NCBI GenBank assembly: GCA_943358395.1
Contig: CALRGY010000001.1
Span: 8,008-72,007 of the forward strand
Direction of reading: 5' to 3'
Length of the DNA: 64,000 nucleotides
From: Candidatus Uhrbacteria bacterium
GTDB lineage: Bacteria; Patescibacteriota; Patescibacteriia; UBA9934
The notes under the pieces are model-generated. The model did no database searches. It was not told the origin of the DNA and was given only the letters and a program-made list of their open reading frames with translations. Below, in pieces: positions 4,199-61,195 of this stretch (positions are counted from its first letter, which is position 1; each line of letters starts with the position of its first letter). Position numbers and translations under genes: made by a program.

Positions 4199-4596
4199 TG
4201 CTATACTTTCCCTGTATGTCTCTTCGTCAATATGTGGTGATGCTTGCGCTGGGAACGGCGATTAGTATTTCGGCGTGGTGTATTGTGATGATTTCTATTG
4301 ATCCAAGCACGGCAGGCGTGTTTGCGTTCTTTGTGTTCTACCTTACGCTTGGGGCAGGTATTGCGGGGCTTTTCACCATTGGTGGCACAATGATTCGGGC
4401 AAGAAAGTATGCGGAAGAGGAGGTTCATGCTGCCGTGGCACGTTCTTTTCGCCAAGGGGTGATGTTGTCTCTGCTGTTTCTCACATGCCTGTTTTTGCTG
4501 TCCCGTAATCTGTTTTCCCTCGGTACCATGGTGCTGCTTATCGTATTAGTAGGACTGATTGAGTTTTTGATGATGAGTGTGAGGAGGGAAACGTGA
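4198..4596 (+). CDS. small hydrophobic membrane protein (hypothetical)
   Basis: 133 aa with 3-4 predicted TM segments; its ATG overlaps the upstream stop (TGATG). Confidence 0.4.
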   Translation: MLYFPCMSLRQYVVMLALGTAISISAWCIVMISIDPSTAGVFAFFVFYLTLGAGIAGLFTIGGTMIRARKYAEEEVHAAVARSFRQGVMLSLLFLTCLFLLSRNLFSLGTMVLLIVLVGLIEFLMMSVRRET

Positions 4597-4597
4597 G

Positions 4598-4672
4598 GGG
4601 AATCTTTGGAGGGTGTTGGGAATGGGATGTGAAGGTGAAGTGATTTTTGAGGGTCGATGAGGGTGTTCATTA
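4598..4672. repeat. solo fragment of the G-rich arm motif of the 0.9-kb composite element
   Basis: The 21-mer ctttggagggtgttgggaatg is exactly shared with the reverse complement of 48519-48539; the sequence is G-tract rich. Confidence 0.6.
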
Positions 4673-4685
4673 TGCAATATCTGAG

Positions 4686-4761
4686 ATGTTAGATCGACCT
4701 AACATTTTGTATGCAAAAAATCCAATGATTTGATGAGTTTAATGTTAGATGGACGTAACAT
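4686..4761. promoter_or_regulatory. two near-identical 20-bp palindromic sites upstream of mreB (candidate operator pair)
   Basis: atgttagATCGACctaacat at 4686-4705 and atgttagATGGACgtaacat at 4742-4761, 36 nt apart, about 180 nt upstream of the mreB start. Confidence 0.4.
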
Positions 4762-4935
4762 CTTCAGAATCGCACATTGAAGTATCGGATCGGTACATAA
4801 AGATCGCCGACAACCCACATCCCGTCATTTCCCTCATTCACAACCTCTCCAAGACTCCCTCCCCATCATTTCTCATCTCACGTCAGTTGTGGATAGATCC
4901 ATTTCGAATATTCCCAATCCCTGGCAACATCATGG

Positions 4936-27131: not shown

Positions 27132-27170
27132 CCCCCGAGCTGCTATTACGCTGCAGCCCGGGGGTTTTCT
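27132..27170 (+). terminator. rho-independent terminator after lipoprotein gene 1
   Basis: cccccgagctgc...gcagcccggggg stem followed by TTTTCT. Confidence 0.65.
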
Positions 27171-27225
27171 ATTTCAACAACCCTTTCTCCAAACTCCCCC
27201 ATTTCTCTTTTCCACACCCCCCTCG

Positions 27226-27287
27226 TCGACAAAACCCCATTTTTATGCTAATATTAACGGTTCCTCTGCCTGTACGGATGTTCCGTA
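27226..27287 (+). promoter_or_regulatory. sigma70-like promoter plus hairpin, copy B
   Basis: TCGACA 27226-31, TGcTAATAT 27247-54, hairpin tacgga-tgt-tccgta 27273-87; near-identical to 25558-25623. Confidence 0.6.
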
Positions 27288-39449: not shown

Positions 39450-39574
39450 TAGGACTTTCTCATTTTAGGCTAGTTTCGATGAAGATCGAGGAAAATTCGT
39501 GAGACGTACTTCATGGTACGTTGAACGATTTTCTGATGATCTGAGTCGAAAATAGACAAAATGAGAACGTCCTA
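39450..39574. repeat. 125-bp palindromic dispersed element, copy 5
   Basis: Near-identical to copy 4; ends exactly at the stop codon of the DUF218 gene. Confidence 0.85.
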
Positions 39575-41633: not shown

Positions 41634-41758
41634 TAGGACTTTCTCATTTTAGACCAGTTTCGATGAAGATCGAGGAAATCGTCTGAGACGTACTTCATGG
41701 TACGTTGAAGACGTTTCCGATGATCTGAGTCGAAAATGGGCAAAATGAGGAAGTCCTA
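41634..41758. repeat. 125-bp palindromic dispersed element, copy 6
   Basis: taggactttctcattttagaccag...gagacgtacttcatggtacgttgaag...gaggaagtccta. Confidence 0.85.
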
Positions 41759-45384: not shown

Positions 45385-45509
45385 TTAAACGGTTCCAGTT
45401 TAGGCGAGTTTCGATGCGCATCGAGCAAAGCTTCCGAGACGTACTTCACGGTACGTTGAGGAAGTTTGCGATGATGCAAGTCGAAAATCAACAAACTGGG
45501 GCCGTTTAA
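45385..45509. repeat. 125-bp palindromic dispersed element, copy 7 (divergent termini)
   Basis: Termini ttaaacggttccagttt and aaactggggccgtttaa around the conserved centre cgagacgtacttcacggtacgttgagg. Confidence 0.8.
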
Positions 45510-45818: not shown

Positions 45819-47744
45819 TCATTTACCCCCATATTCACTCTTTCTTCCCAAAATTGCCTTTATTCTACGTACTCCCGCAGAAACTGCCTCTTCCTTCACA
45901 AGAGTAATTCCACCAAGTTCTCCCGTGTGCTCTACATGAGGTCCCCCGCAAATTTCTTTACTAAAATCCCCAACAGAATACACCTTAATCTTGTCACCGA
46001 TCGTCGCGTACTTGTCGCCGAAGAGCCCAATAGCGCCACGATCCTTCGCCTCATCCACCGTGAGCATCTCAAATTTCACCGGAAGATCCTTCGTGATCTG
46101 TTCATTGATGATCTTTTCAACCTCAGTAACCTGTTCAGGAGTCATCTTTTCACCGTGGCTAAAGTCAAACCGCAGTCGTTCCGCCGTGATATTACTGCCT
46201 TTTTGGGCGACATGATTACCGAGCACCGTCCGCAACGCCTGATGCAAAAGATGCGTCGCTGTATGCAATTTCGTGGTTTCCACGGAATGATCGGCTAATC
46301 CCCCGGCGAACTTCTGCTCCGATCCGGCACGAGACAAATCTTGGTGTTTCTTAAAATCAACCGCGAATTGATCGGCGTCGACGTTGAGACTATACGATCG
46401 CTGCAACTCTTCCGTTGTCAGTTCCAACGGAAAACCAAAGCTTTGATACAGGTTAAACGCATCCGTCCCCGTCACCCCGTTCCCGCGATCCACAATCTTC
46501 TTCAGCTCACGAAGCCCCTGCTCAATAGTCTTCGCAAACTTTGTTTCCTCGGTTTCGATGGCACCCAGGATCGCTTCTCGCTTTTCATCGAGATTCGGAT
46601 ACGCCTCCTTATACATCTCGATGTAGGCCTCAGAAACCGATCGCACGATGGCATTCGCGACTCCGAGCTTCCGGGCAAAACGCACAGCTCTTCGAAGCAA
46701 ACGGCGAACGAAATACCCCTGATCCTTATTCCCCGGCAACACCCCGTCACCAATAAGGAATGTTGCAGCACGAATATGATCAAGAATCACCCGGAATGCG
46801 TAGGTATCCTCGTCATTCGACCCATAAGTCTTATTTGTCGAATGTTCGAGTGCTGCTCGTGCTGATGAAAACGCATCAATCAAAAACACATCCGGATTCC
46901 CATTCACCGCAGCCGCAATACGCTCTAATCCCCCACCGAAATCAACATTTCTCTGTGGCAATGCCTTAAATCCTTCTGCCGTTTTCACGTACTGCATGAA
47001 CACGTTGTTGCCGATCTCCATGAATCGGCCGCAATCACAGTTCACATGACACACAGGATCGGCGAGTGGAGACTGTTCATGAAGACCAAGTTCTACGCCA
47101 AAATCCCAAAACATTTCTGTATCTGGACCACCGGGTTCACCAATTGGCATGTTCGCTGGAACTCCAGCACGGCTCCACCAGTTTTTCTTTTCAGGGTACG
47201 TAAAAATACGACCACCCTGTAATCCGTTCGTATCCGCATCTTCGATAACAGACGTATCGATTCCAGAATCCGCGAAACATTTCGTCCAAAGCGCAATCGC
47301 CTCGTCATCACGACCCACTCCGATGTCGGAGTTTCCGCGAAACACCGTCACGTACAAATTCTTCGGCTCGAGTTTCAATTCGCCGATCAAAAACTCATAC
47401 ATCCACGGAATCTGTTCGTTCTTGAAGTAGTCGCCCAGACTCCAGTTGCCGAGCATTTCAAAGAATGTGGTGTGGCGGTTGTCGCCGACTTCTTCGATGT
47501 CTCCAGAACGGAAGCACTTCTGACTATCGGCAATACGGGTTCCCGCGGCGTGTTTCTCGCCAAGAAGATACTGAATCATCGGCTGCATCCCCGATCCCGT
47601 AAAAAGGGTTGTTGGATCATTTTCCGGCAATAATGACGACGACGGGATAACGGCATGCCCGTGTTTTTTAAAGAAATCAAGGTATTTTTGACGAATGTCG
47701 TTGGTGGTAAGCATAGAAAGATGAAGGAATTGTAGCCGAAGCAT
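45819..47744 (-). CDS. alaS: alanyl-tRNA synthetase (short form: catalytic, tRNA-recognition and editing domains, no C-Ala domain)
   Basis: FFKKHGH, SLLP.NDPTTLFT, the editing HxxxH motif (HTATHLLH) and the GGPHV region; only 641 aa. Confidence 0.88.
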   Translation of the reverse strand: MLRLQFLHLSMLTTNDIRQKYLDFFKKHGHAVIPSSSLLPENDPTTLFTGSGMQPMIQYLLGEKHAAGTRIADSQKCFRSGDIEEVGDNRHTTFFEMLGNWSLGDYFKNEQIPWMYEFLIGELKLEPKNLYVTVFRGNSDIGVGRDDEAIALWTKCFADSGIDTSVIEDADTNGLQGGRIFTYPEKKNWWSRAGVPANMPIGEPGGPDTEMFWDFGVELGLHEQSPLADPVCHVNCDCGRFMEIGNNVFMQYVKTAEGFKALPQRNVDFGGGLERIAAAVNGNPDVFLIDAFSSARAALEHSTNKTYGSNDEDTYAFRVILDHIRAATFLIGDGVLPGNKDQGYFVRRLLRRAVRFARKLGVANAIVRSVSEAYIEMYKEAYPNLDEKREAILGAIETEETKFAKTIEQGLRELKKIVDRGNGVTGTDAFNLYQSFGFPLELTTEELQRSYSLNVDADQFAVDFKKHQDLSRAGSEQKFAGGLADHSVETTKLHTATHLLHQALRTVLGNHVAQKGSNITAERLRFDFSHGEKMTPEQVTEVEKIINEQITKDLPVKFEMLTVDEAKDRGAIGLFGDKYATIGDKIKVYSVGDFSKEICGGPHVEHTGELGGITLVKEEAVSAGVRRIKAILGRKSEYGGK

Positions 47745-48600
47745 TGATGGGATGGAAGGGAATCGGAGGAAAAGTGTGTGAAAGTGAAGGGAGTCTTTGG
47801 AGGGGGTTGGGAAGAAGTGAGTCTTGGAATGGGCTGTGAACGGGGAGTCGGAGGGGGTGGGGCTTGCGTTTTCAAAAGGGGCATCCTACTAATGCAACTG
47901 AGTTGCATGTAGGGGATGGGATAGCGATTGGGATTCGATGAGGATCGATTGTGTTTATCGAGAATGATCGAGATTCTGATGGAGACGGTCGATGTGATGT
48001 TTCATAGGTTTTTTTGCGTACCATCGATCGTGTTGATCGATTTTCACCATCGGAATCTGACCATATGCTTTGAAAAAAGAGTGCTCTCGCTAACGCGAAT
48101 GATTCGCGATAAGGAAACGGTCATCGATATTCGGTGCCCCGATGAGGTACGGCGACAAGGCGTAGAATCGACGATTCATGATCGTGAGCATTACAGTCGT
48201 CTTTCGCTGATTTCACTGTTACGCCGTGTTCAGATGGAAAGTTTTTCAACCCTCAAAAGCGAGGGCGCCTTCACAAAACGCGATACCCAAGCTGCCGAAT
48301 ATACCCGTCGATAGCACCTATCGCATCACGTTCGCTTCCTAATCTCAAACCCATTCCAAAGATTCCCATCACTTCACGATCCCTCACCCTCTCCAACTCC
48401 CCCTTCCCACTTCGCTCTTCGAGCTTCGAGGGACAAGTGGCAGGAGGAGGGTTCTCATCCAACTCTCACAACCCACCCCAAAGACTCACATCACTTCCCA
48501 TTTCACGTTCCCGTCACCACATTCCCAACACCCTCCAAAGACTCACCTCACTTCCCATTCCCAACCCCTTCAAAAGATCACTCTCACGTCCCCTCATCCC
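47745..48600. repeat. 0.9-kb composite element A: G-rich tandem-repeat arm / ~400-bp non-coding core / C-rich arm
   Basis: G-arm 47750-47930 carries repeated gtgagtctttggaggggttggg units; the core begins ctaatgcaactgagttgcat and contains gcgaatgattcgc; the C-arm 48330-48600 is the inverted complement of the G-arm motifs; homologous but inverted relative to 56022-56950. Confidence 0.75.
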
Positions 48601-49246
48601 ACGTCACCCTCCCATCCCCAGCACTATCAATATCCTCCCCCAATACTCGTGGCGACGCATGCGTTATCACATCAATCATCGCTTTTACATTCGCGAATAT
48701 TTCGCGTGCGGTATACCGAACAATGCCCCGATATGTTCGACGATCTGCCGCAACACCTTGCGCCTCAATCCCGAATGCATTCGCAAGATACAGTGCTCTG
48801 GGAAGATGGTACGCCTGCGTGACAATAATCGCCTTCGTCACACCAAAGACGTTCTTTGCCCGAATCATCGAATCGTACGTATCAAACCCAGCGTGGTCGA
48901 GAAAAATGTCGTCAGGGTCAACATTCGCTCCAAGCAAATACAGACGCATCGCATTCACTTCATCGTATTCGATTTGCCCATCATCGCCACTCACCAAAAT
49001 CTTCTCAATGAATCCTGCACGATACAAATCAACTGCCGTCACCAAACGATCCCGTAAAATGTCCGACGGCTCACCATTCGCTCTCACACTTGCCCCAAGC
49101 ACAATAGCAATTGGCGCATAGCTCACCTGATCTATTGGTACAATCGCCGATCGGAACTGAAAAATAATCACATTCATTCCCAACGCCACACACGCCCAAA
49201 AGGCTACAATACACCCCAAAAAGACCAATACTCGTCTTTTCCTCAT
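48584..49246 (-). CDS. DUF218 (SanA/YdcF-like) protein, second paralogue
   Basis: N-terminal TM anchor, then IVLGASV...DGQIEYDE... blocks; start at MRKRRVLVFLG; the C-terminal 19 aa are encoded by the end of the C-rich repeat arm. Confidence 0.55.
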   Translation of the reverse strand: MRKRRVLVFLGCIVAFWACVALGMNVIIFQFRSAIVPIDQVSYAPIAIVLGASVRANGEPSDILRDRLVTAVDLYRAGFIEKILVSGDDGQIEYDEVNAMRLYLLGANVDPDDIFLDHAGFDTYDSMIRAKNVFGVTKAIIVTQAYHLPRALYLANAFGIEAQGVAADRRTYRGIVRYTAREIFANVKAMIDVITHASPRVLGEDIDSAGDGRVTWDEGT

Positions 49247-50850
49247 ACCACCGTACTTACTACCTCTACCGGCGCTGAACGCCGAAACATCTTTCGATGA
49301 ATGCTGCGAGTAAACGCTGTCATATCTTCGTTGCGTAGCACGAGACCGCACGCAATGTATGCCGCAAAACCTAAGCCCCCAGCGAATGCCGTCTGCACAA
49401 ACACGCTTATCCATGAATTTAACGGAATCAACCCCACCACCGCATATTTCACACCTTGAGTAACGACGCCGCCGATCACTGCGGCAATTGAAATGATGAA
49501 TGTTGTTCGGAGAATACGTTTTTCATCCAACGCCCCCACTTTGTGCCGCAAACACACCCACAACAGCGCGATCTGAACAATCGCTGAAATACTGAATGCT
49601 GCACTCAACCCAATAACACCAAAATGCGGAGCCAACACCGAGCCAAGCCCGATGTTCACCACTGTCGAAATTATCGCCACGACAAACGGCGTTTTTGCAT
49701 CTTCAAGGGCAAAGAATGCACGCACCAAAATAGTCACCAATGCCTGTGCTGCAAAGCTCATGGTAAATAATGCCAAGGTATCCGCGGTGGTCACCGTGGC
49801 AGCCCAATCAAAGTTCTTTCCCCCAAACGCCAAACGTACCAGCTGTGCACGCAGAAGCAAAAACATCACCGTTGCCGGCACAATCCAGAGCAAAACATTT
49901 CGAACAGCACTGGAAAACGTCTGCACAAACCCAAGCATATCTTTTGCAGCGACTCGCTCACAAAGCATAGGAAACGATGCCACGGCATACGCCATTGCAA
50001 TCACGCCAATCGGAAACGAATTGAGGTTATACGCCAGCTTAAACACTGTTGTTGACCCAGCAAGAAGCACGCTTGCCATTGCCGTCATCACCACAAAATT
50101 CCCCTGGCTCACCGCAAGCCCCAGTACCCGAGGAATCATTTGAATCGCGGTGGTGCGGAGGTCAGGATCTCGCAGATTAAACACAGGGCGATAGGTATAC
50201 CCCAAGGCATACACGCCAATCCCCTGAAGAAGCGCGTGCATCATCGCGCCAAGAACACTCCCCCACGCCAAACCAATCGGACCAAGTACTGGAACAAAAA
50301 TGATGACACCGACGATGATGCCGATATTGTTGACGATGGGGGCAAGAGCATACAAGAAGAACCGACGGGTTCCCTGCAGCACCGAACCAAACACCATCGA
50401 TGCCGCAAAGAATAGCTCCGCGATATACATCACACGGCTCATCGAAACCGTCATTGCCATCTTCTCTACACCGTATCCTGGCGCAATAATCGGCACCGTC
50501 CATGGAGCAGTCAGTATTGCAAGCCCTGCTGCCACCGCAAACACCACACCAAACACATTGAAAATAGTATTCGTAAACCGCCACGCTTTCTCAGCATCAT
50601 GATGATAATGCTTGGCAAAAATGGGAATAAAGCTTGCAGAAAGGGCGCCAAGAATGAGCAACTGCAGGAGCAAATCGGGAATAAGGAACGCGCTGGTATA
50701 CGCATCAAGTGTATCCCCTGCTCCAAACGTTCCTGCCAAAATATAATCCCGCAATGCGCCAAAGAGTCGCGACACCATCGATAGCCCACCGATGATGAAG
50801 GCAGCACTCGTAATGCTTCCAGCTTTACTCGTGAAAAGCTTCTTGATCAT
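49243..50850 (-). CDS. murJ: lipid II flippase MurJ (MviN)
   Basis: 535 aa, 14 TM segments, N-terminal SRLFGALRDYILAGTFGAG...DAY..AF.IP signature. Confidence 0.8.
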   Translation of the reverse strand: MIKKLFTSKAGSITSAAFIIGGLSMVSRLFGALRDYILAGTFGAGDTLDAYTSAFLIPDLLLQLLILGALSASFIPIFAKHYHHDAEKAWRFTNTIFNVFGVVFAVAAGLAILTAPWTVPIIAPGYGVEKMAMTVSMSRVMYIAELFFAASMVFGSVLQGTRRFFLYALAPIVNNIGIIVGVIIFVPVLGPIGLAWGSVLGAMMHALLQGIGVYALGYTYRPVFNLRDPDLRTTAIQMIPRVLGLAVSQGNFVVMTAMASVLLAGSTTVFKLAYNLNSFPIGVIAMAYAVASFPMLCERVAAKDMLGFVQTFSSAVRNVLLWIVPATVMFLLLRAQLVRLAFGGKNFDWAATVTTADTLALFTMSFAAQALVTILVRAFFALEDAKTPFVVAIISTVVNIGLGSVLAPHFGVIGLSAAFSISAIVQIALLWVCLRHKVGALDEKRILRTTFIISIAAVIGGVVTQGVKYAVVGLIPLNSWISVFVQTAFAGGLGFAAYIACGLVLRNEDMTAFTRSIHRKMFRRSAPVEVVSTVV

Positions 50851-51997: not shown

Positions 51998-52122
51998 TAG
52001 AAACAGATTATTTTCGACCAGTTTCGGTGCGCATCGAGGAAATGTCGTGAGACGTACTTCATGGTACGTTGAACGACTTTCCGATGATGCAAGCCGAAAA
52101 TGGGCAAAATAATCCGTTTCTA
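51998..52122. repeat. 125-bp palindromic dispersed element, copy 8
   Basis: Termini tagaaacagattatttt and aaaataatccgtttcta; the terminal cta (52120-52122) is the stop codon of pduL on the minus strand. Confidence 0.85.
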
Positions 52123-53556: not shown

Positions 53557-53681
53557 TAGGACTTCCTCATTTTGTCTATTTTCGACTCAGATCATCGGAA
53601 AATTGTTCAACGTACCAGGTAGTACGTCTCACGAATTTTCCTCGATCTTCATCGAAACTAGCCTAAAATGAGAAAGTCCTA
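53557..53681. repeat. 125-bp palindromic dispersed element, copy 9
   Basis: Near-identical to copy 2; its terminal cta (53679-53681) is the stop codon of the TrmH-like gene. Confidence 0.85.
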
Positions 53682-56021: not shown

Positions 56022-56950
56022 CCTCTCCCCCATTTATGGGGGAGTCGGAGGGGGAGAGGGAAAGTGAAGTGAGTCTTTGGAGGGGTTAAGTGGTGACAGG
56101 AATCGGAGCAGCCAGATCCTGAGGCTCCGCCGAAGGACCCCGAACGAACCTACTCGTAAACAATTCGGGGCGTGAGGGATGGGAGTCTTGGAAGGGGTTG
56201 TGAGTCCGGACGTGAACCTGGACGTGAACTCTCCTCCATTTATGGGGGAGTTAGGAGGGGGCTGAATCGGAGGGGGTCTCATTTTGAAATGACACCCCCC
56301 CATTTTCGACCTTTTTCAACAGGACACTCTGCCGCGACGTGATCGTGAAATCGGCGAAAAGTGTCTTAAATGGGGACGCACGGAAATCATCAACGGCATA
56401 CGTCATCACTTACCCTGGATCGTTATCATCGGTATCGACCAACGGTTTCTTCTTGCGAATGATTCGCATTAGCAAGAAGCCTCTTTGGAAAACCACATAG
56501 TCAAATTCCGACCTCAAAAACTGATCACCTCAATCGGCTATACACAAAAGAATCAATAAAACATCACGTCGACTGTCTTCATCGGAATCCTCCTCACATA
56601 CGATGATAATAGTCCCTTCTCATCGAATCCCGATCATCATCCCGTCCTCTACATGCAACTCAGTTGCATTAGCAGGACCCCCCTTTTTAAATCGCAACCC
56701 CCTCTGGTTCAGATCCCTCCGATTCACAACCCTTTCAAAGACTCACCTCCCGAATCGTTTACCCGTCAGCTCATTTGAGGTCCTTCCCACTGCGCTAAAG
56801 CTTCGTGGGGACAGGTCGGCGTAGCCTCAGGATCTGGGACGCTCCGATTCCTGTTCTCCCTCCAACCCCATTCAAAGATCACCCTCCTCTCACCGCCTAC
56901 CCCCAACCCCTTCAAAGACTCCCCTCACTTTCGATTCTTCCGAGCCAGCG
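56022..56950. repeat. 0.9-kb composite element B (inverted copy of element A)
   Basis: G-arm 56022-56290; C-arm 56690-56950; the two arms are inverted repeats of each other (for example caggaatcggagcagccagatcctgaggctccgcc versus the reverse complement of ggcgtagcctcaggatctgggacgctccgattcctg); the core ends atgcaactcagttgcattag, the reverse complement of the start of core A; cores are roughly 70-80% identical in opposite orientation. Confidence 0.75.
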
Positions 56951-57260
56951 TCACGTGAAGCGTTGCGGCATTAAGCATGGTATTGAAACGTTCGTAATAA
57001 GGGGCATGATCTTTAGGATCAATGCCTTCTATTGTTTTCTGAAACGCTGCCCGCATAAAGTCATTTGCTCGACGAAAATCATGACCAGTGCGCTGGGCAC
57101 TGGAAACAACCTGCTCAAATCGACGAAAAAATATTTCCTCCACAAGAAAATCCTCCGCAGCCTGCATCATCGTCGGCGACTCTTTTGGAGTCAAAGCCTC
57201 AGAAAAAAATTCCTGCGAAGACGGAACACGCGAATCCTCCAATCGCCAAGGCTTTCCCAT
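56925..57260 (-). CDS. hypothetical protein (111 aa)
   Basis: ORF 3 nt downstream of the J-domain gene; no recognisable motif; its last codons run into the C-rich repeat arm. Confidence 0.35.
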   Translation of the reverse strand: MGKPWRLEDSRVPSSQEFFSEALTPKESPTMMQAAEDFLVEEIFFRRFEQVVSSAQRTGHDFRRANDFMRAAFQKTIEGIDPKDHAPYYERFNTMLNAATLHVTLARKNRK

Positions 57261-57262
57261 AT

Positions 57263-58060
57263 TTAATCGTCTTCACCAAACTCCCTCACAATCGCCCGCG
57301 CCAACATTGCTTTAAATTGCTCACGCAATGGTTCTCGAGATTTCACACTCATACCTTGAATGACCTGTTCAAACTTCCTCTGCACCTCAACGACTACTCC
57401 TATTCTGGCACCATAATTATTGCCCATGGCACGCATAAATATCTGAGCAAAAGCCTCTGGCTCAAGAAACGCTTCGACGTATTCCCGACAACACGTTTGC
57501 GCCAAATCTTCAAAACGGATCGAAAATGCTACCCGATCCCGGTACGGCACCCCCTCCAAATACGTCTCAAATTCGCCCCGTAACTTGTTCCTGGCATCAA
57601 GAGTGATGCCCTTACAGTCTTTCATCGCATCAGCAAACCGGGCAGAAAAGAAGGTGACATTCAAAAAGTTGCGCATTTGCTGTTCTTTTGGCGAAAGCGC
57701 ATCGATCCCCATCCGCTCGCGGGGTGGCGGAGGTTTCACCGCTTTCCTTGTACGAGAAACCGCCGGAGTCGTATTCTGAAGAGCATCATAAACACGTCGT
57801 TTCTTTTCATCACCGAGAACCTCATAAGCATCGGCAAACGCTCGAAATCGAGCCTCCGCCTCAGGATCATTCGGATGTCGATCGGGATGCGTTTCCATGA
57901 CCGCCTTTCTCCATGCACTTTTGATCGCTCGATCATCTGCGTCTTTTAATACGCCAAGCACAGCATAGTGATCAATCGGTGTATGCAATTCTACCGATGG
58001 CGCATTTCTTCCTCCTTCAAAACCTCTTCCCGATCGAGTCATATATTGCGACGTATTCAT
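57263..58060 (-). CDS. J-domain (DnaJ-like) protein
   Basis: J-domain with HPD motif (HYAVLGV...AWRKAVMETHPDRH...AYEVLGD...RRVYD); the C-terminal region is unrelated to DnaJ. Confidence 0.7.
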   Translation of the reverse strand: MNTSQYMTRSGRGFEGGRNAPSVELHTPIDHYAVLGVLKDADDRAIKSAWRKAVMETHPDRHPNDPEAEARFRAFADAYEVLGDEKKRRVYDALQNTTPAVSRTRKAVKPPPPRERMGIDALSPKEQQMRNFLNVTFFSARFADAMKDCKGITLDARNKLRGEFETYLEGVPYRDRVAFSIRFEDLAQTCCREYVEAFLEPEAFAQIFMRAMGNNYGARIGVVVEVQRKFEQVIQGMSVKSREPLREQFKAMLARAIVREFGEDD

Positions 58061-59585: not shown

Positions 59586-59711
59586 TAAAGGTTTTTTCAT
59601 TTTGTCTCTTTTCGGCTTGCTGCGTCGCAAATTCGTTCAACGTACCGTTAAGTACGTCTCACGAACTTTGCTCCTTGCGCACCGAAAATAGCCTAAAATG
59701 AGAAAACCTCA
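59586..59711. repeat. 125-bp palindromic dispersed element, copy 10
   Basis: aggttttttcattttgtctcttttcggcttgc...cgttcaacgtaccgttaagtacgtctcacg...aaaatgagaaaacctca. Confidence 0.8.
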
Positions 59712-59715
59712 CTTC

Positions 59716-60657
59716 TCATGTCACATCACCGAATAAGAATACCTCATTTCGTCGCCGTTCCACGATCCCTTCGTCCACAAGCTTCGCAATCAGTGTTGTA
59801 AAACGCTGTTCATCGATGTCGTTCATCGGCGATCGTGCGCGTAATGCCTTCAGTGTCATCGATCCTTCACGTAATGCGTCAACGATGCGTCCGCGGAAGT
59901 AGCGATCGGTGCGTTCAAAGGGAATCGGAACCCCCTCCTTACTCCCCCTTTGCAGGGGGAGGGTACGCAACTGTTTCGGTTCCCTTCCTCCATGAAGTGG
60001 GGCTAATGGGCATAGTCCCCAGATATGACCTCGCGCCGAGCAATGCAGTGCGCCGATATCCATGAGCGCATGGTTCCATGTCCATACATCGCTGGGTCGA
60101 ATCAATTGCGCCAATTGCTGCATCGATTTCGGGTCGGATTTGTGCCGAGGAAATACTCGGCGGAAGATTCTCAGAATATTCGTATCCACCGGTGCGGCAT
60201 TGGGATTATGAAACGCAAACGCCGCAATGGCATTCGCGGTGTAGTCACCGATTCCTGGGAGCTGCTTCATCGCATGAATATCATTAGGAAGTTCTCCTCC
60301 AAGCTCGATCACCGCCTTCGCAAGCCGATGCAGCATAACGGCACGACGGTTGTACCCCAGCCCTTGCCATAATCGGAGCACATCGGCAGTGGATGCTGCG
60401 GCGAGGTCTGCCCACGTTGGAAATGCAAGTAAAAACGCTCGCCACTTTGGAATAACGCGATCGACTTGCGTTTGCTGCAGCATCATTTCTGAAAGCGCAA
60501 TAGCATACGGATCCGTGGTTCTTCGCCACGGCAAATCTCGCTTGTGTGCCGCAAACCATTCAAAGACGATGACGTAAAACCGTTCAACGCGCCCATTTGT
60601 AGAACGCTTTGACGCTTTCACTTTCCGTGTTGAATTCGATGGGTTTCGGGTTTTCAT
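59716..60657 (-). CDS. MutY/Nth-family HhH-GPD DNA glycosylase with Fe-S loop
   Basis: HhH motif LPGIGDYTANAIAAFAF, the Fe-S ligand region HCSARGHIWGLCP and a C-terminal extension. Confidence 0.7.
   Translation of the reverse strand: MKTRNPSNSTRKVKASKRSTNGRVERFYVIVFEWFAAHKRDLPWRRTTDPYAIALSEMMLQQTQVDRVIPKWRAFLLAFPTWADLAAASTADVLRLWQGLGYNRRAVMLHRLAKAVIELGGELPNDIHAMKQLPGIGDYTANAIAAFAFHNPNAAPVDTNILRIFRRVFPRHKSDPKSMQQLAQLIRPSDVWTWNHALMDIGALHCSARGHIWGLCPLAPLHGGREPKQLRTLPLQRGSKEGVPIPFERTDRYFRGRIVDALREGSMTLKALRARSPMNDIDEQRFTTLIAKLVDEGIVERRRNEVFLFGDVT
59931..59968. repeat. 36-bp G/C palindromic motif, in-frame inside the MutY-like CDS
   Basis: ccccctccttactccccctttgcagggggagggtacgc; encodes LPLQRGSKEGVP on the minus strand. 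Confidence 0.7.
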
Positions 60658-61195
60658 ACGGCGGCAGTGTGTTAAAGCTCATCGAGGAACCCGCTTCGCA
60701 CTCCTCGACCCCCTCCGACTCCCCCTTGGCAGGGGGAGGGTTCACGACGGATACGGTCGATTCCATCGCAAGGACATCAACCCGGTACAACCATCCATAA
60801 TTCACTAAGGTCATAGTTCCTGCTGTGGTGAAGTGAAGATCGCGTACGTCGATGATGACGGAACCCTTTACAACGATTCGCCCGCCATACAACGCCAGCT
60901 CCTCCTTCCCCTCACGATCATTAATCACCACCAGGCTCGTGCCGTCGTCCATCCAAATCGTTGATGAACCAAACGCCACTTTCATCATCGATGAACACGA
61001 CAAAACATTCTGCCGCGAAACATCAACGCTTTCACATCCAAGATCGGTGGATGGTGCCGTCTGACTCACAATCGTAATCACAGATCGTGGACGATACCCA
61101 TCTCCCCCGGCAAAGCGCGCATCAAAATGCCTGCCAATCAACAGTGCCATCGAAAGCACAACAATCACACCGATGATCCATCGATTAGAGTTCAT
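60584..61195 (-). CDS. membrane-anchored hypothetical protein
   Basis: N-terminal TM anchor; 203 aa; its 3' region overlaps the MutY-like start by 74 bp. Confidence 0.35.
   Translation of the reverse strand: MNSNRWIIGVIVVLSMALLIGRHFDARFAGGDGYRPRSVITIVSQTAPSTDLGCESVDVSRQNVLSCSSMMKVAFGSSTIWMDDGTSLVVINDREGKEELALYGGRIVVKGSVIIDVRDLHFTTAGTMTLVNYGWLYRVDVLAMESTVSVVNPPPAKGESEGVEECEAGSSMSFNTLPPYENPKPIEFNTESESVKAFYKWAR
60709..60746. repeat. 36-bp G/C palindromic motif, second copy, in-frame inside the hypothetical CDS
   Basis: ccccctccgactcccccttggcagggggagggttcacg; encodes NPPPAKGESEGV on the minus strand, in the same phase as copy 1. Confidence 0.7.

What the first reader, a model, noticed from the sequence alone, without database searches (positions are those of the whole stretch)
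47745..48600. About 0.9-kb composite repeat (copy A): G-rich tandem-repeat arm, conserved non-coding ~400-bp core, C-rich inverted arm
Upstream of alaS lies a ~850-bp region with no credible ORF; the frames listed over it are translations of G-rich or C-rich repeats. The left arm (47750-47930) is a tandem array of ~40-bp units built on gtgagtctttggaggggttgggaa, with GGG/GGGGG tracts spaced as in G-quadruplex-forming sequences. The right arm (48330-48600) is the inverted complement of the same units (ccctccaaagactcacctcacttcccattcccaac), so the arms form ~200-bp terminal inverted repeats. Between them is a ~400-bp core of normal composition that starts with the palindrome ctaatgcaactgagttgcat and contains gcgaatgattcgc. 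A second copy of the whole structure lies 8 kb away (see the next finding). Candidate explanations are a large structured ncRNA, a non-autonomous mobile element with unusually long repeat-rich terminal inverted repeats, or a chromosome-organisation element.
Basis: seen in the sequence. Interest (0 to 1): 0.8.

Follow-up and report, generated by a model that had tools for sequence, protein, structure and literature searches.

The report
Foldback intergenic repeat carrying Zur-type operators
The 0.85-kb region upstream of alaS is a non-coding, hairpin-forming repeat found in a few Uhrbacteria genomes; its core carries palindromes that match binding sites of zinc/iron-sensing (Fur-family) repressors, so it resembles known bacterial intergenic repeats with an unusual cargo.

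Summary
Window 47745-48583 is non-coding, with a G-rich left arm, a C-rich right arm made of inverted copies of one ~27-35-nt unit, and a ~430-nt core. A second copy lies at 56022-56925, inverted; the cores are 64% identical overall and 74% in the left half.

The arms are not continuous 200-bp inverted repeats, and no canonical G-quadruplex motif lies in them.

New findings:
- A third, 336-bp copy with a different core lies at 4570-4905.
- Smaller relatives occur in two other Candidatus Uhrbacteria genomes. One is a 258-bp version at the same DUF218-alaS site.
- The best-conserved core feature, ATGCAACTGAGTTGCAT, equals the published Zur-box consensus. Elsewhere it sits in promoters of Fur-family, znuA and ZIP genes.
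- The second palindrome, GCGAATNATTCGC, has the Fur-family 7-1-7 shape.

There is no Rfam hit, shared ORF, codon periodicity, convincing promoter, transposase or target duplication.

Best reading (confidence 0.5): a lineage-restricted, modular foldback repeat, like MITE, BIME or Correia elements, that carries metalloregulator operators. A Zur-controlled sRNA is not excluded. A large structured ncRNA has no support.

The parts
47745..47885 (.). Copy A, G-rich arm. Units at 47791-47809 and 47819-47837; sub-module CGGGGAGTCGGAGGGGG at 47841-47857.
   Evidence: GC skew +0.77; unit hits; 17-mer
47867..47881 (+). Copy A, conserved motif CGTTTTCAAAAGGGG at a fixed distance from the first palindrome. 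Family consensus: TGGGG-N4-CGATTTCAAAAGGGG-N2-TCYTRS-TAATGC.
   Evidence: Present in A, B and L060, and with a 2-nt insertion in L001
47890..47910 (.). Copy A, box 1: TAATGCAACTGAGTTGCATGT. The 17-mer ATGCAACTGAGTTGCAT (47892-47908) equals the Zur-box consensus ATGCAACNNNGTTGCAT.
   Evidence: 24 nt identical in A and B; 20 nt identical in L001; the same palindrome sits in promoters of Fur-family, ZnuA and ZIP genes; published consensus
47886..48319 (.). Copy A, non-coding core
   Evidence: No shared ORF and no codon periodicity; no Rfam hit
48091..48111 (.). Copy A, box 2: TAACGCGAATGATTCGCGATA, a Fur-family 7-1-7-shaped palindrome (xGCGAATnATTCGCx)
   Evidence: Conserved in B at 56451-56471. 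L060 has TAACGCGAAACATTCGCATTA next to the conserved motif, in the place box 1 occupies in A and B. A similar ATGCGA-N5-TCGCAT lies 28 nt from box 1 in the zur promoter region of L006.
48250..48265 (-). Copy A, hairpin CCCTC-N6-GAGGG. It reads as a weak terminator on the minus strand, which is the direction of DUF218 and alaS.
   Evidence: Sequence. The terminator scan flagged a different, overlapping stem at 48281-48265. Copy B has an 11-bp GC hairpin at the equivalent place.
48320..48583 (.). Copy A, C-rich arm. Inverted units at 48351-48365, 48469-48487, 48526-48544 and 48561-48579. It starts directly at the DUF218 stop codon (48584-48586).
56022..56925 (-). Copy B, inverted relative to A. 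On the plus strand: G-rich arm 56022-56300, core 56301-56699, C-rich arm 56700-56925. Box 2 is at 56451-56471, box 1 at 56651-56671, the conserved motif at 56680-56694. It lies between the stop codons of two convergent genes.
   Evidence: arm-arm pairing z=-8.2
4570..4905 (.). Copy C, a mini version. G-rich arm 4570-4665, different core of ~135 nt, C-rich arm 4800-4905. The core holds two copies of another palindrome, ATGTTAG-N6-CTAACAT (4686-4705 and 4742-4761). It lies between a 126-aa gene's stop codon (4594-4596) and mreB (start 4942).
47729..47734 (-). Probable alaS -10 hexamer TACAAT, outside the element. It is conserved in L060. The element ends near the -35 position.

Best explanation
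Copy A belongs to a small family of non-coding, modular, foldback-type intergenic repeats. So far the family is seen only in a sub-lineage of Candidatus Uhrbacteria (Patescibacteria/CPR).

Anatomy (shown):
- Each member has two arms built from 1-4 inverted copies of a G-rich unit, roughly GTGARG-GANTC-TTTGRAKGGGTTGGG.
- Because the arms are inverted, the top strand reads G-rich then C-rich whichever way the element is turned.
- The arms start at or within 14 nt of the neighbouring gene's stop codon.
- Between the arms is a variable core of about 130-430 nt.
- Five of the six members (all but C) carry palindromes of the Fur-family operator type, which are the best-conserved part of the A, B and L001 cores; C carries a different palindrome.
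- A and B carry ATGCAACTGAGTTGCAT, an exact match to the Zur-box consensus, plus a 7-1-7-shaped GCGAATNATTCGC.

Mechanism (inferred):
- The element is a DNA docking site for the cell's Fur-family repressor, probably Zur. The site is packaged in a cassette whose arms pair when read-through transcripts cross it.
- It would therefore end or insulate the upstream transcription unit, and could add a metal-dependent roadblock or local control next to the neighbouring gene. At copy A that gene is alaS, which encodes a zinc enzyme.
- The family spread by duplication or transposition, as MITE, BIME and Correia elements do. Unit number and core content then changed locally.
For: Family and dispersal
- Three copies in 64 kb, in tandem and convergent intergenic contexts.
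- A relative lies in a divergent context in another Uhrbacteria MAG (L001).
- A 258-bp version with 22-25-bp inverted ends lies at the DUF218-alaS site of a species whose alaS is 82% identical (L060 and L075).
- The 19-mer GATTCTTTGAATGGGTTGG is identical in L001 and L060.

Non-coding
-.

Operator identity
- The palindrome matches 46 metagenome loci.
- In at least 16 of them it sits directly upstream of a Fur-family gene, often between a TTGAC -35 and a TAGAAT -10. It also sits upstream of ZnuA and ZIP transporter genes.
- Rodionov et al. 2004 predicted ATGCAACnnnGTTGCAT as the Desulfovibrio Zur site.

Selection on the boxes
- 24 of 24 nt are identical between A and B in a core that is 64% identical overall.
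- L001 has a perfect 21-bp palindrome in an otherwise unalignable core.
- In the window, the boxes occur only inside the elements: 4 sites, with 0.79 matches expected.

Hairpin potential
- Whole-element fold z=-9.3 for A and -10.3 for B.
- Arm pairing is equal on both strands with few G-U pairs, so it looks like a DNA-level inverted repeat.

Placement and precedent
- The arms abut stop codons.
- Bacterial MITEs are known to carry protein-binding sites and promoters.
Against: - No target-site duplication at any copy.
- No transposase or larger parent element in the window, in related loci, or in phage and plasmid collections.
- Occupancy of the same site in a related species fits vertical inheritance as well as insertion.
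- No sigma-70-like promoter overlaps either box, unlike real zur promoters.
- This organism's own Fur-family gene and its operator are unknown. None lies in the window.
- Arm complementarity beyond composition is weak in A, C and L001.
- A and B are larger than typical MITEs, and G/C-rich rather than AT-rich.
- Only six elements are known, from three species.
Confidence: 0.5

Rival explanations
1. The cores of A and B encode a Zur/Fur-repressed small RNA, by analogy with RyhB, PrrF or FsrA. The C-rich arm would supply CCUCC-type anti-Shine-Dalgarno seeds, and the arms would insulate the unit from neighbouring transcription.
For: - Copy B lies between two convergent gene ends, so any regulated unit must be internal.
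- Two operators about 200 bp apart are conserved.
- The plus-strand consensus fold is better than the minus-strand one (-68 versus -37 kcal/mol), with 12 double-sided changes.
- Transcripts running outward from the core are C-rich in either direction.
Against: - No promoter hexamers flank either box.
- No clean intrinsic terminator in the plus direction.
- The covariation rests on two sequences only.
- Core z-scores are weak: B plus strand -0.4.
- The core sequence is not shared by C, L001 or L060.
- No Rfam hit.
Confidence: 0.15
2. It is not mobile. It is an old, vertically inherited intergenic regulatory and terminator region of the DUF218-alaS junction. It expanded by local unit duplication and was copied elsewhere by rare segmental duplication.
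For: - The same site is occupied, in the same orientation, in a related species (L060/L075).
- The alaS -10 hexamer TACAAT is conserved just outside the element.
- No target duplication or transposase was found.
Against: - The flanks of copies B, C and L001 share nothing with the alaS locus.
- Other relatives have macAB-type genes or different neighbours at this junction, and no element.
- Arm units are conserved across genomes while cores differ, which is the pattern of a repeat family rather than a single locus.
Confidence: 0.15
3. It is a DNA-level chromosome or epigenetic element. The arm units would be recognition sites for a GANTC-specific protein (a CcrM-like methyltransferase or a reader of its mark), as in Caulobacter CIR repeats, or they would form G-quadruplexes or cruciforms.
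For: - Every unit contains GANTC.
- The one freely varying unit position is the N: GAGTC, GATTC or GAATC.
- GANTC density is 15-17 per kb in A and B, against 5.3 per kb across the window.
- The window's top G4Hunter scores lie in the arms.
- CIR is a precedent.
Against: - The enrichment is only threefold and follows from the unit itself.
- No methyltransferase was identified.
- No canonical G4 motif lies in the arms.
- The rest of the unit is conserved as well as the GANTC is.
Confidence: 0.1
4. It is a single large structured non-coding RNA of about 0.85 kb, whose arms form a long closing helix.
For: Whole-element fold z about -9 to -10.
Against: - Most of the arm pairing energy is compositional.
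- Pairing is strand-symmetric with few G-U pairs.
- The core is not conserved across members.
- No Rfam family matches.
- Element size ranges from 258 to 904 nt.
Confidence: 0.05

Closest known systems
Correia repeat-enclosed elements (Neisseria MITEs)
   Same: - Non-coding and dispersed in intergenic DNA.
- Inverted ends that pair in transcripts.
- An internal binding site for a DNA-binding protein (IHF), with effects on neighbouring genes.
   Different: - Correia elements are about 100-200 bp with simple inverted ends, a TA target duplication and hundreds of copies.
- Here the arms are arrays of G-rich units and the elements reach 0.9 kb.
- No duplication is seen, copies are few, and the cargo is a Fur-family operator rather than an IHF site.
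BIME / RIP (RIB) elements of E. coli: inverted REP units flanking an IHF site (from my own knowledge, not tested here)
   Same: - Mosaic of short GC-rich palindromic units in opposite orientations around a central protein-binding motif.
- Located after gene ends.
- Variable unit number.
   Different: - REP units are themselves about 35-nt hairpins, mobilised by RAYT transposases.
- The units here are not self-complementary and are strongly G/C-skewed.
- No RAYT-like gene was seen.
Pneumococcal BOX elements and the P. gingivalis BrickBuilt MITE
   Same: - Modular build, with end modules plus a variable number of internal or tandem sub-units.
- Variable total length, strictly intergenic, stable predicted folds.
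   Different: - In BOX and BrickBuilt the tandem units sit in the middle, between the end modules.
- Here the repeated units form the ends and the unique sequence is in the middle.
Zur box of the ATGCAACnnnGTTGCAT type (Rodionov et al. 2004, PMC545781)
   Same: - Box 1 matches the 17-bp consensus exactly. It is the same sequence as the D. desulfuricans znuABC-zur site.
- It also matches sites upstream of Patescibacteria Fur-family genes.
   Different: - Known and predicted Zur boxes overlap promoters of zinc-uptake genes.
- Here the box lies in a repeat with no recognisable promoter and, in copy B, with no downstream gene.
Caulobacter CIR (CcrM-associated intergenic repeat)
   Same: An intergenic inverted repeat whose conserved part contains GANTC.
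   Different: CIR belongs to alpha-proteobacteria that have CcrM. Neither a methyltransferase nor methylation is known here. The resemblance is only a lead.

Membership tests
Prokaryotic MITE | Non-coding; no transposase inside | tested here: met
   No conserved ORF, no Pfam hit, no codon periodicity
Prokaryotic MITE | Terminal inverted repeats (~4-30 bp) | tested here: met
   L060 has 22-25-bp ends, CTGAACTGATTCTTT(A)GAATGGG. A has a 32-nt pair at 91% complementarity (I9). The ends are multi-unit arrays rather than a single repeat.
Prokaryotic MITE | Flanking direct repeats (target-site duplication) | tested here: not met
   No duplication is visible at the ends of A, B, C, L001 or L060. The review notes that such repeats decay with age.
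Prokaryotic MITE | Multiple dispersed copies at unrelated sites | tested here: met
   Three copies in 64 kb, plus L001 and L060/L075. Whole genomes could not be scanned.
Prokaryotic MITE | Typical size under 500 bp and AT-rich | tested here: not met
   A is 839 bp and B is 904 bp, and the arms are G/C-rich. C (336 bp) and L060 (258 bp) do fit the size.
Prokaryotic MITE | A parent IS with the same ends, or demonstrated mobility (presence/absence at orthologous sites) | tested here: inconclusive
   No parent was found in the window, related loci, viral contigs, plasmids or phages. Relatives without the element have other genes at the junction, so no clean empty site exists.
Fur-family (Zur-type) operator | Match to the 17-bp palindrome ATGCAACNNNGTTGCAT | tested here: met
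   Exact match at 47892-47908 and in copy B
Fur-family (Zur-type) operator | The same sequence lies in promoters of zur or zinc-uptake genes | tested here: met
   In other genomes it lies upstream of at least 16 Fur-family genes, and of ZnuA and ZIP genes
Fur-family (Zur-type) operator | Overlaps a promoter it can repress at this locus | tested here: not met
   No -35/-10 pair flanks box 1 or box 2
Fur-family (Zur-type) operator | Bound by this organism's Zur or Fur protein | not testable with these tools
Known structured ncRNA (any Rfam family, including large ones) | Covariance-model match | tested here: not met
   The only hit at gathering threshold is tRNA-Arg, outside the element. Across 47600-48750 only two non-significant matches at E=1.3 and 4.3. 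L001 shows only a tRNA.
G-quadruplex-forming sequence | Four runs of at least 3 G with loops of at most 7 nt | tested here: not met
   None inside the arms. The one C-strand motif, at 48590, lies in the DUF218 coding end. G4Hunter reaches 2.24 in the arm.
CIR-like, methylation-associated repeat | Conserved GANTC in the repeat, plus a cognate methyltransferase | tested here: inconclusive
   GANTC is present in every unit and enriched threefold. No methyltransferase was sought or found.

The most novel reading that the evidence does not exclude
The elements are functional, metal-responsive modules. The Uhrbacteria Zur/Fur protein would bind the boxes in vivo. Either it controls a core-encoded sRNA, or it gates read-through into neighbours such as the zinc enzyme AlaRS. 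A dispersing foldback repeat would then be spreading metalloregulator operators, and rewiring the zinc regulon, in a minimal CPR genome.
Probability: 0.2. Interest if true: 0.7.

Novelty: new variant of a known kind. Interest (0 to 1): 0.5.

Why it matters
CPR/Patescibacteria genomes are tiny, and almost nothing is known about their regulation.

- A repeat family that carries Fur-family operators would be a concrete, testable case of regulatory sites being spread by repeats in these organisms.
- It would also give a handle on zinc or iron control near an essential zinc enzyme gene (alaS).
- Practically, these repeats break short-read assemblies: two Logan contigs end inside copy A. They also produce spurious ORF calls and N-terminal extensions of alaS.

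If the boxes prove to be inert passengers, this is simply one more lineage-specific intergenic repeat.

Tried and rejected
- Coding core: rejected. No Pfam hit, no homologues beyond the sequence itself, stops in copy B, no codon periodicity.
- Small conserved ORFs through box 1: rejected. Starts and ends differ between A and B, and the frame is stopped in L001.
- Finding more copies through spurious 'MQLSCIS...' ORF calls in the protein database: no hits.
- Element-specific metagenome pattern: 0 hits. The looser palindrome gave 46 loci, none with arms.
- Viral, plasmid and phage origin: only single chance matches, or nothing.
- Promoter search with relaxed criteria: nothing conserved between A and B.
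- T-box or other leader for alaS: no Rfam hit.
- Strand assignment from G-U bias in arm pairing: no asymmetry.
- Concerted evolution of arms within a copy: clear only in B, where a 35-nt segment is shared by both arms (I14).
- Fur-family gene in the window or in related loci: none found.
- Orientation bias relative to neighbouring genes: trivial, because inverted arms read G-rich then C-rich in either orientation.

Full report
WHAT IS THERE

The window comes from contig CALRFH010000001.1 of MAG GCA_943356535.1. The closest named alaS homologues belong to Candidatus Uhrbacteria / Patescibacteria.

Region 47745-48583 lies between the stop codon of a DUF218 gene (48584-49414, minus strand) and the start of a short, CPR-type alaS (45819-47714, minus strand). 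GC skew is +0.77 over 47745-47885 and about -0.8 over 48320-48583.

Both arms contain a unit built on GAGTCTTTGRAGGGG. It matches 17 times in 64 kb, against 2.8 expected, and 10 of the matches lie in the two large copies. The right-arm units are inverted relative to the left-arm units; the best pair is 32 nt at 91% complementarity (I9).

A second copy occupies 56022-56925 in the opposite orientation, between the stop codons of a TrmA-like methyltransferase gene and a 111-aa ORF.

- The left arm ends at about 47885. It has only two clear units, and Tandem Repeats Finder reports nothing there.
- The right arm ends at 48583. The next bases encode the conserved ...GDGRVTWDE tail of DUF218.
- The arms are not continuous 200-bp inverted repeats. 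When one arm is shuffled, most of the pairing energy remains because one arm is G-rich and the other C-rich. The z-score is -2.9 for A, -1.1 for C and -1.9 for L001, but -8.2 for B and -6.7 for L060.
- Core identity between A and B is 64% overall and 74% over 213 nt in the left half. Only two blocks reach 90% or more in 20-nt windows.
- G4Hunter peaks in the arms (2.24), but no canonical four-run G-quadruplex motif lies inside them.

THE CORE IS NOT CODING, AND NOT A KNOWN RNA

- The 128-aa ORF in A has no Pfam match and no database relative other than the call made on this same sequence.
- Copy B is full of stops.
- Substitutions between A and B fall equally on the three codon phases (50/46/51, p=0.87).
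- Rfam gives nothing at gathering threshold and only two non-significant matches (E=1.3 and 4.3) in the permissive search.
- Core folding z-scores are modest, from -0.4 to -3.3.
- A two-sequence consensus fold is better on the plus strand, with 12 double-sided changes. Two sequences cannot carry that argument.

THE PALINDROMES ARE FUR-FAMILY OPERATORS

- CTAATGCAACTGAGTTGCATGTAG is identical in A and B.
- A scan of species-representative genomes with 20 nt of it found a Uhrbacteria MAG with the whole G-arm, palindrome, C-arm layout (L001).
- The same scan found three Patescibacteria/unclassified MAGs where the palindrome sits upstream of a Fur-family gene, in two of them between TTGAC and TAGAAT.
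- A metagenome scan gave 46 loci. In at least 16 the palindrome is immediately upstream of a Fur-family gene, and in others it is upstream of ZnuA or a ZIP zinc transporter.
- Rodionov et al. 2004 predicted ATGCAACnnnGTTGCAT as the Zur site of Desulfovibrio. Their D. desulfuricans site is ATGCAACtgaGTTGCAT, the same 17-mer.
- The second palindrome, (T/C)GCGAAT(G/C)ATTCGC, has the xxxxAATnATTxxxx 7-1-7 shape of Fur, PerR and Zur boxes (shape from my own knowledge).
- In the relative L060 this second type replaces box 1 next to the same flanking motif.
- A similar ATGCGA-N5-TCGCAT lies 28 nt from box 1 in the zur promoter region of L006.
- In the window, these boxes occur only inside copies A and B.

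IT IS A FAMILY WITH CONSERVED ARMS AND VARIABLE CORES

- A third copy lies at 4570-4905, between a 126-aa gene and mreB. It has two G-rich units, a C-rich arm, and an unrelated core of about 135 nt with two copies of ATGTTAG-N6-CTAACAT.
- L001 has a core of about 240 nt that shares only box 1 and the adjacent motif (consensus CGATTTCAAAAGGGG; L001 has a 2-nt insertion) with A and B.
- L060 and L075, from a species whose alaS is 82% identical, carry a 258-bp version at the same DUF218-alaS junction. It has one unit per arm (22-25-bp inverted ends), one box and the same motif.
- The 19-mer GATTCTTTGAATGGGTTGG is identical in L001 and L060.
- Other relatives have macAB-type genes or different neighbours at this junction, and no element.
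- The arms begin at or within 14 nt of upstream stop codons. In four cases the TGA lies in the GTGA that opens the arm, three of them unit prefixes.
- The probable alaS -10 hexamer, TACAAT, is conserved just outside the element.

WHAT IT MOST LIKELY IS

The anatomy is that of a bacterial intergenic repeat. It resembles MITE, BIME/RIP, Correia and BOX elements in being non-coding, dispersed, inverted at the ends, modular, able to form hairpins, and loaded with a protein-binding site.

- Arm pairing is equally good on both strands with few G-U pairs, which points to a DNA-level inverted repeat rather than a strand-specific RNA.
- It fails two MITE criteria, target duplication and typical size or AT-richness. 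Mobility is unproven.
- I therefore describe it as working like these elements, and as a new variant rather than a member of a named family.
- The conserved Fur-family operators are the unusual part. The palindromes are the best-conserved feature of the A, B and L001 cores, and a box is also present in L060, so they are probably used. The likeliest use is as docking sites for Zur/Fur.
- Which transcript they control cannot be decided here, because no promoter was found.
- A Zur-controlled sRNA remains possible for A and B, and fits the position of copy B between convergent genes.

A SIDE LEAD

Every unit contains GANTC, and the N is the one position that varies freely (GAGTC, GATTC, GAATC). 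GANTC is three times denser in A and B than in the window as a whole. This recalls the CcrM-associated CIR repeats of Caulobacter, but nothing else supports it yet.

LIMITS

- Only six elements from three species could be collected.
- The rest of this MAG could not be read.
- No expression data were available.

Noticed in passing
window 39450-39574, 41634-41758, 45385-45509, 51998-52122 (+); 53567-53675, 59597-59705 (-): A separate ~125-nt intergenic repeat family with six copies in 21 kb. Each copy is a long imperfect hairpin (TAGGACTTTCTCATTTT...AAAATGAGGAAGTCCTA) with an invariant centre, GAGACGTACT...GGTACGTTGA. The outer stem shows apparently compensatory changes between copies. There is no Rfam hit, and the family is absent from the related loci scanned.
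   Followed up: partly
window 60709-60725 (-), 59923-59960; also 56038-56054 and 47841-47857: The 17-mer GGGGGAGTCGGAGGGGG, part of a GC-rich hairpin module in the arms of A and B, recurs exactly inside ORF 60584-61195. A close variant lies inside ORF 59716-60657, which looks MutY/EndoIII-like to me (no domain search was run). Both are in frame. Chance expectation is 0.02.
   Followed up: partly
window 27161-27270: A solitary C-rich stretch resembling an arm unit (CAACCCTTTCTCCAAACTCCCCC) directly after a terminator-like hairpin. It has no G-rich partner and may be a half element.
   Followed up: no
L021 2741-2761 (and L052): A perfect Zur-type palindrome, TTAATGCAACTGAGTTGCATTAA, lies between two convergent genes (a 379-aa membrane protein and a 293-aa protein) in a groundwater metagenome contig. 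It has no arms and no adjacent Fur-family gene. So stand-alone copies of this box in non-promoter positions exist elsewhere.
   Followed up: partly
L006 1029-1075: Two different 17-bp palindromes, ATGCGATTAAGTCGCAT and ATGCAACTGAGTTGCAT, lie 28 nt apart in the divergent promoter region between a P-loop ATPase gene and a Fur-family gene. This mirrors the box 2 / box 1 pair of the element.
   Followed up: partly
window 47714-48420 versus L008/L009; alaS homologues P0002, P0014: Two Logan short-read contigs that carry this alaS end inside copy A. Gene callers also extend alaS N-terminally into the stop-poor C-rich arm (641 or 665 aa instead of about 630). The repeats therefore break assemblies and distort annotation.
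   Followed up: yes
window 47745-49414 versus L056, L058, L067, L076: Relatives carry three efflux genes (a membrane-fusion-type protein, an ABC ATPase and a MacB/FtsX permease) between DUF218 and alaS. This genome and L060/L075 lack them and have the repeat there instead.
   Followed up: partly
window 56925-58060 (-): A DnaJ-domain ORF (57263-58060) is followed 3 nt later by a 111-aa ORF with no Pfam match. That ORF's stop codon lies in the first unit of copy B. This may be a split gene or two coupled genes.
   Followed up: no
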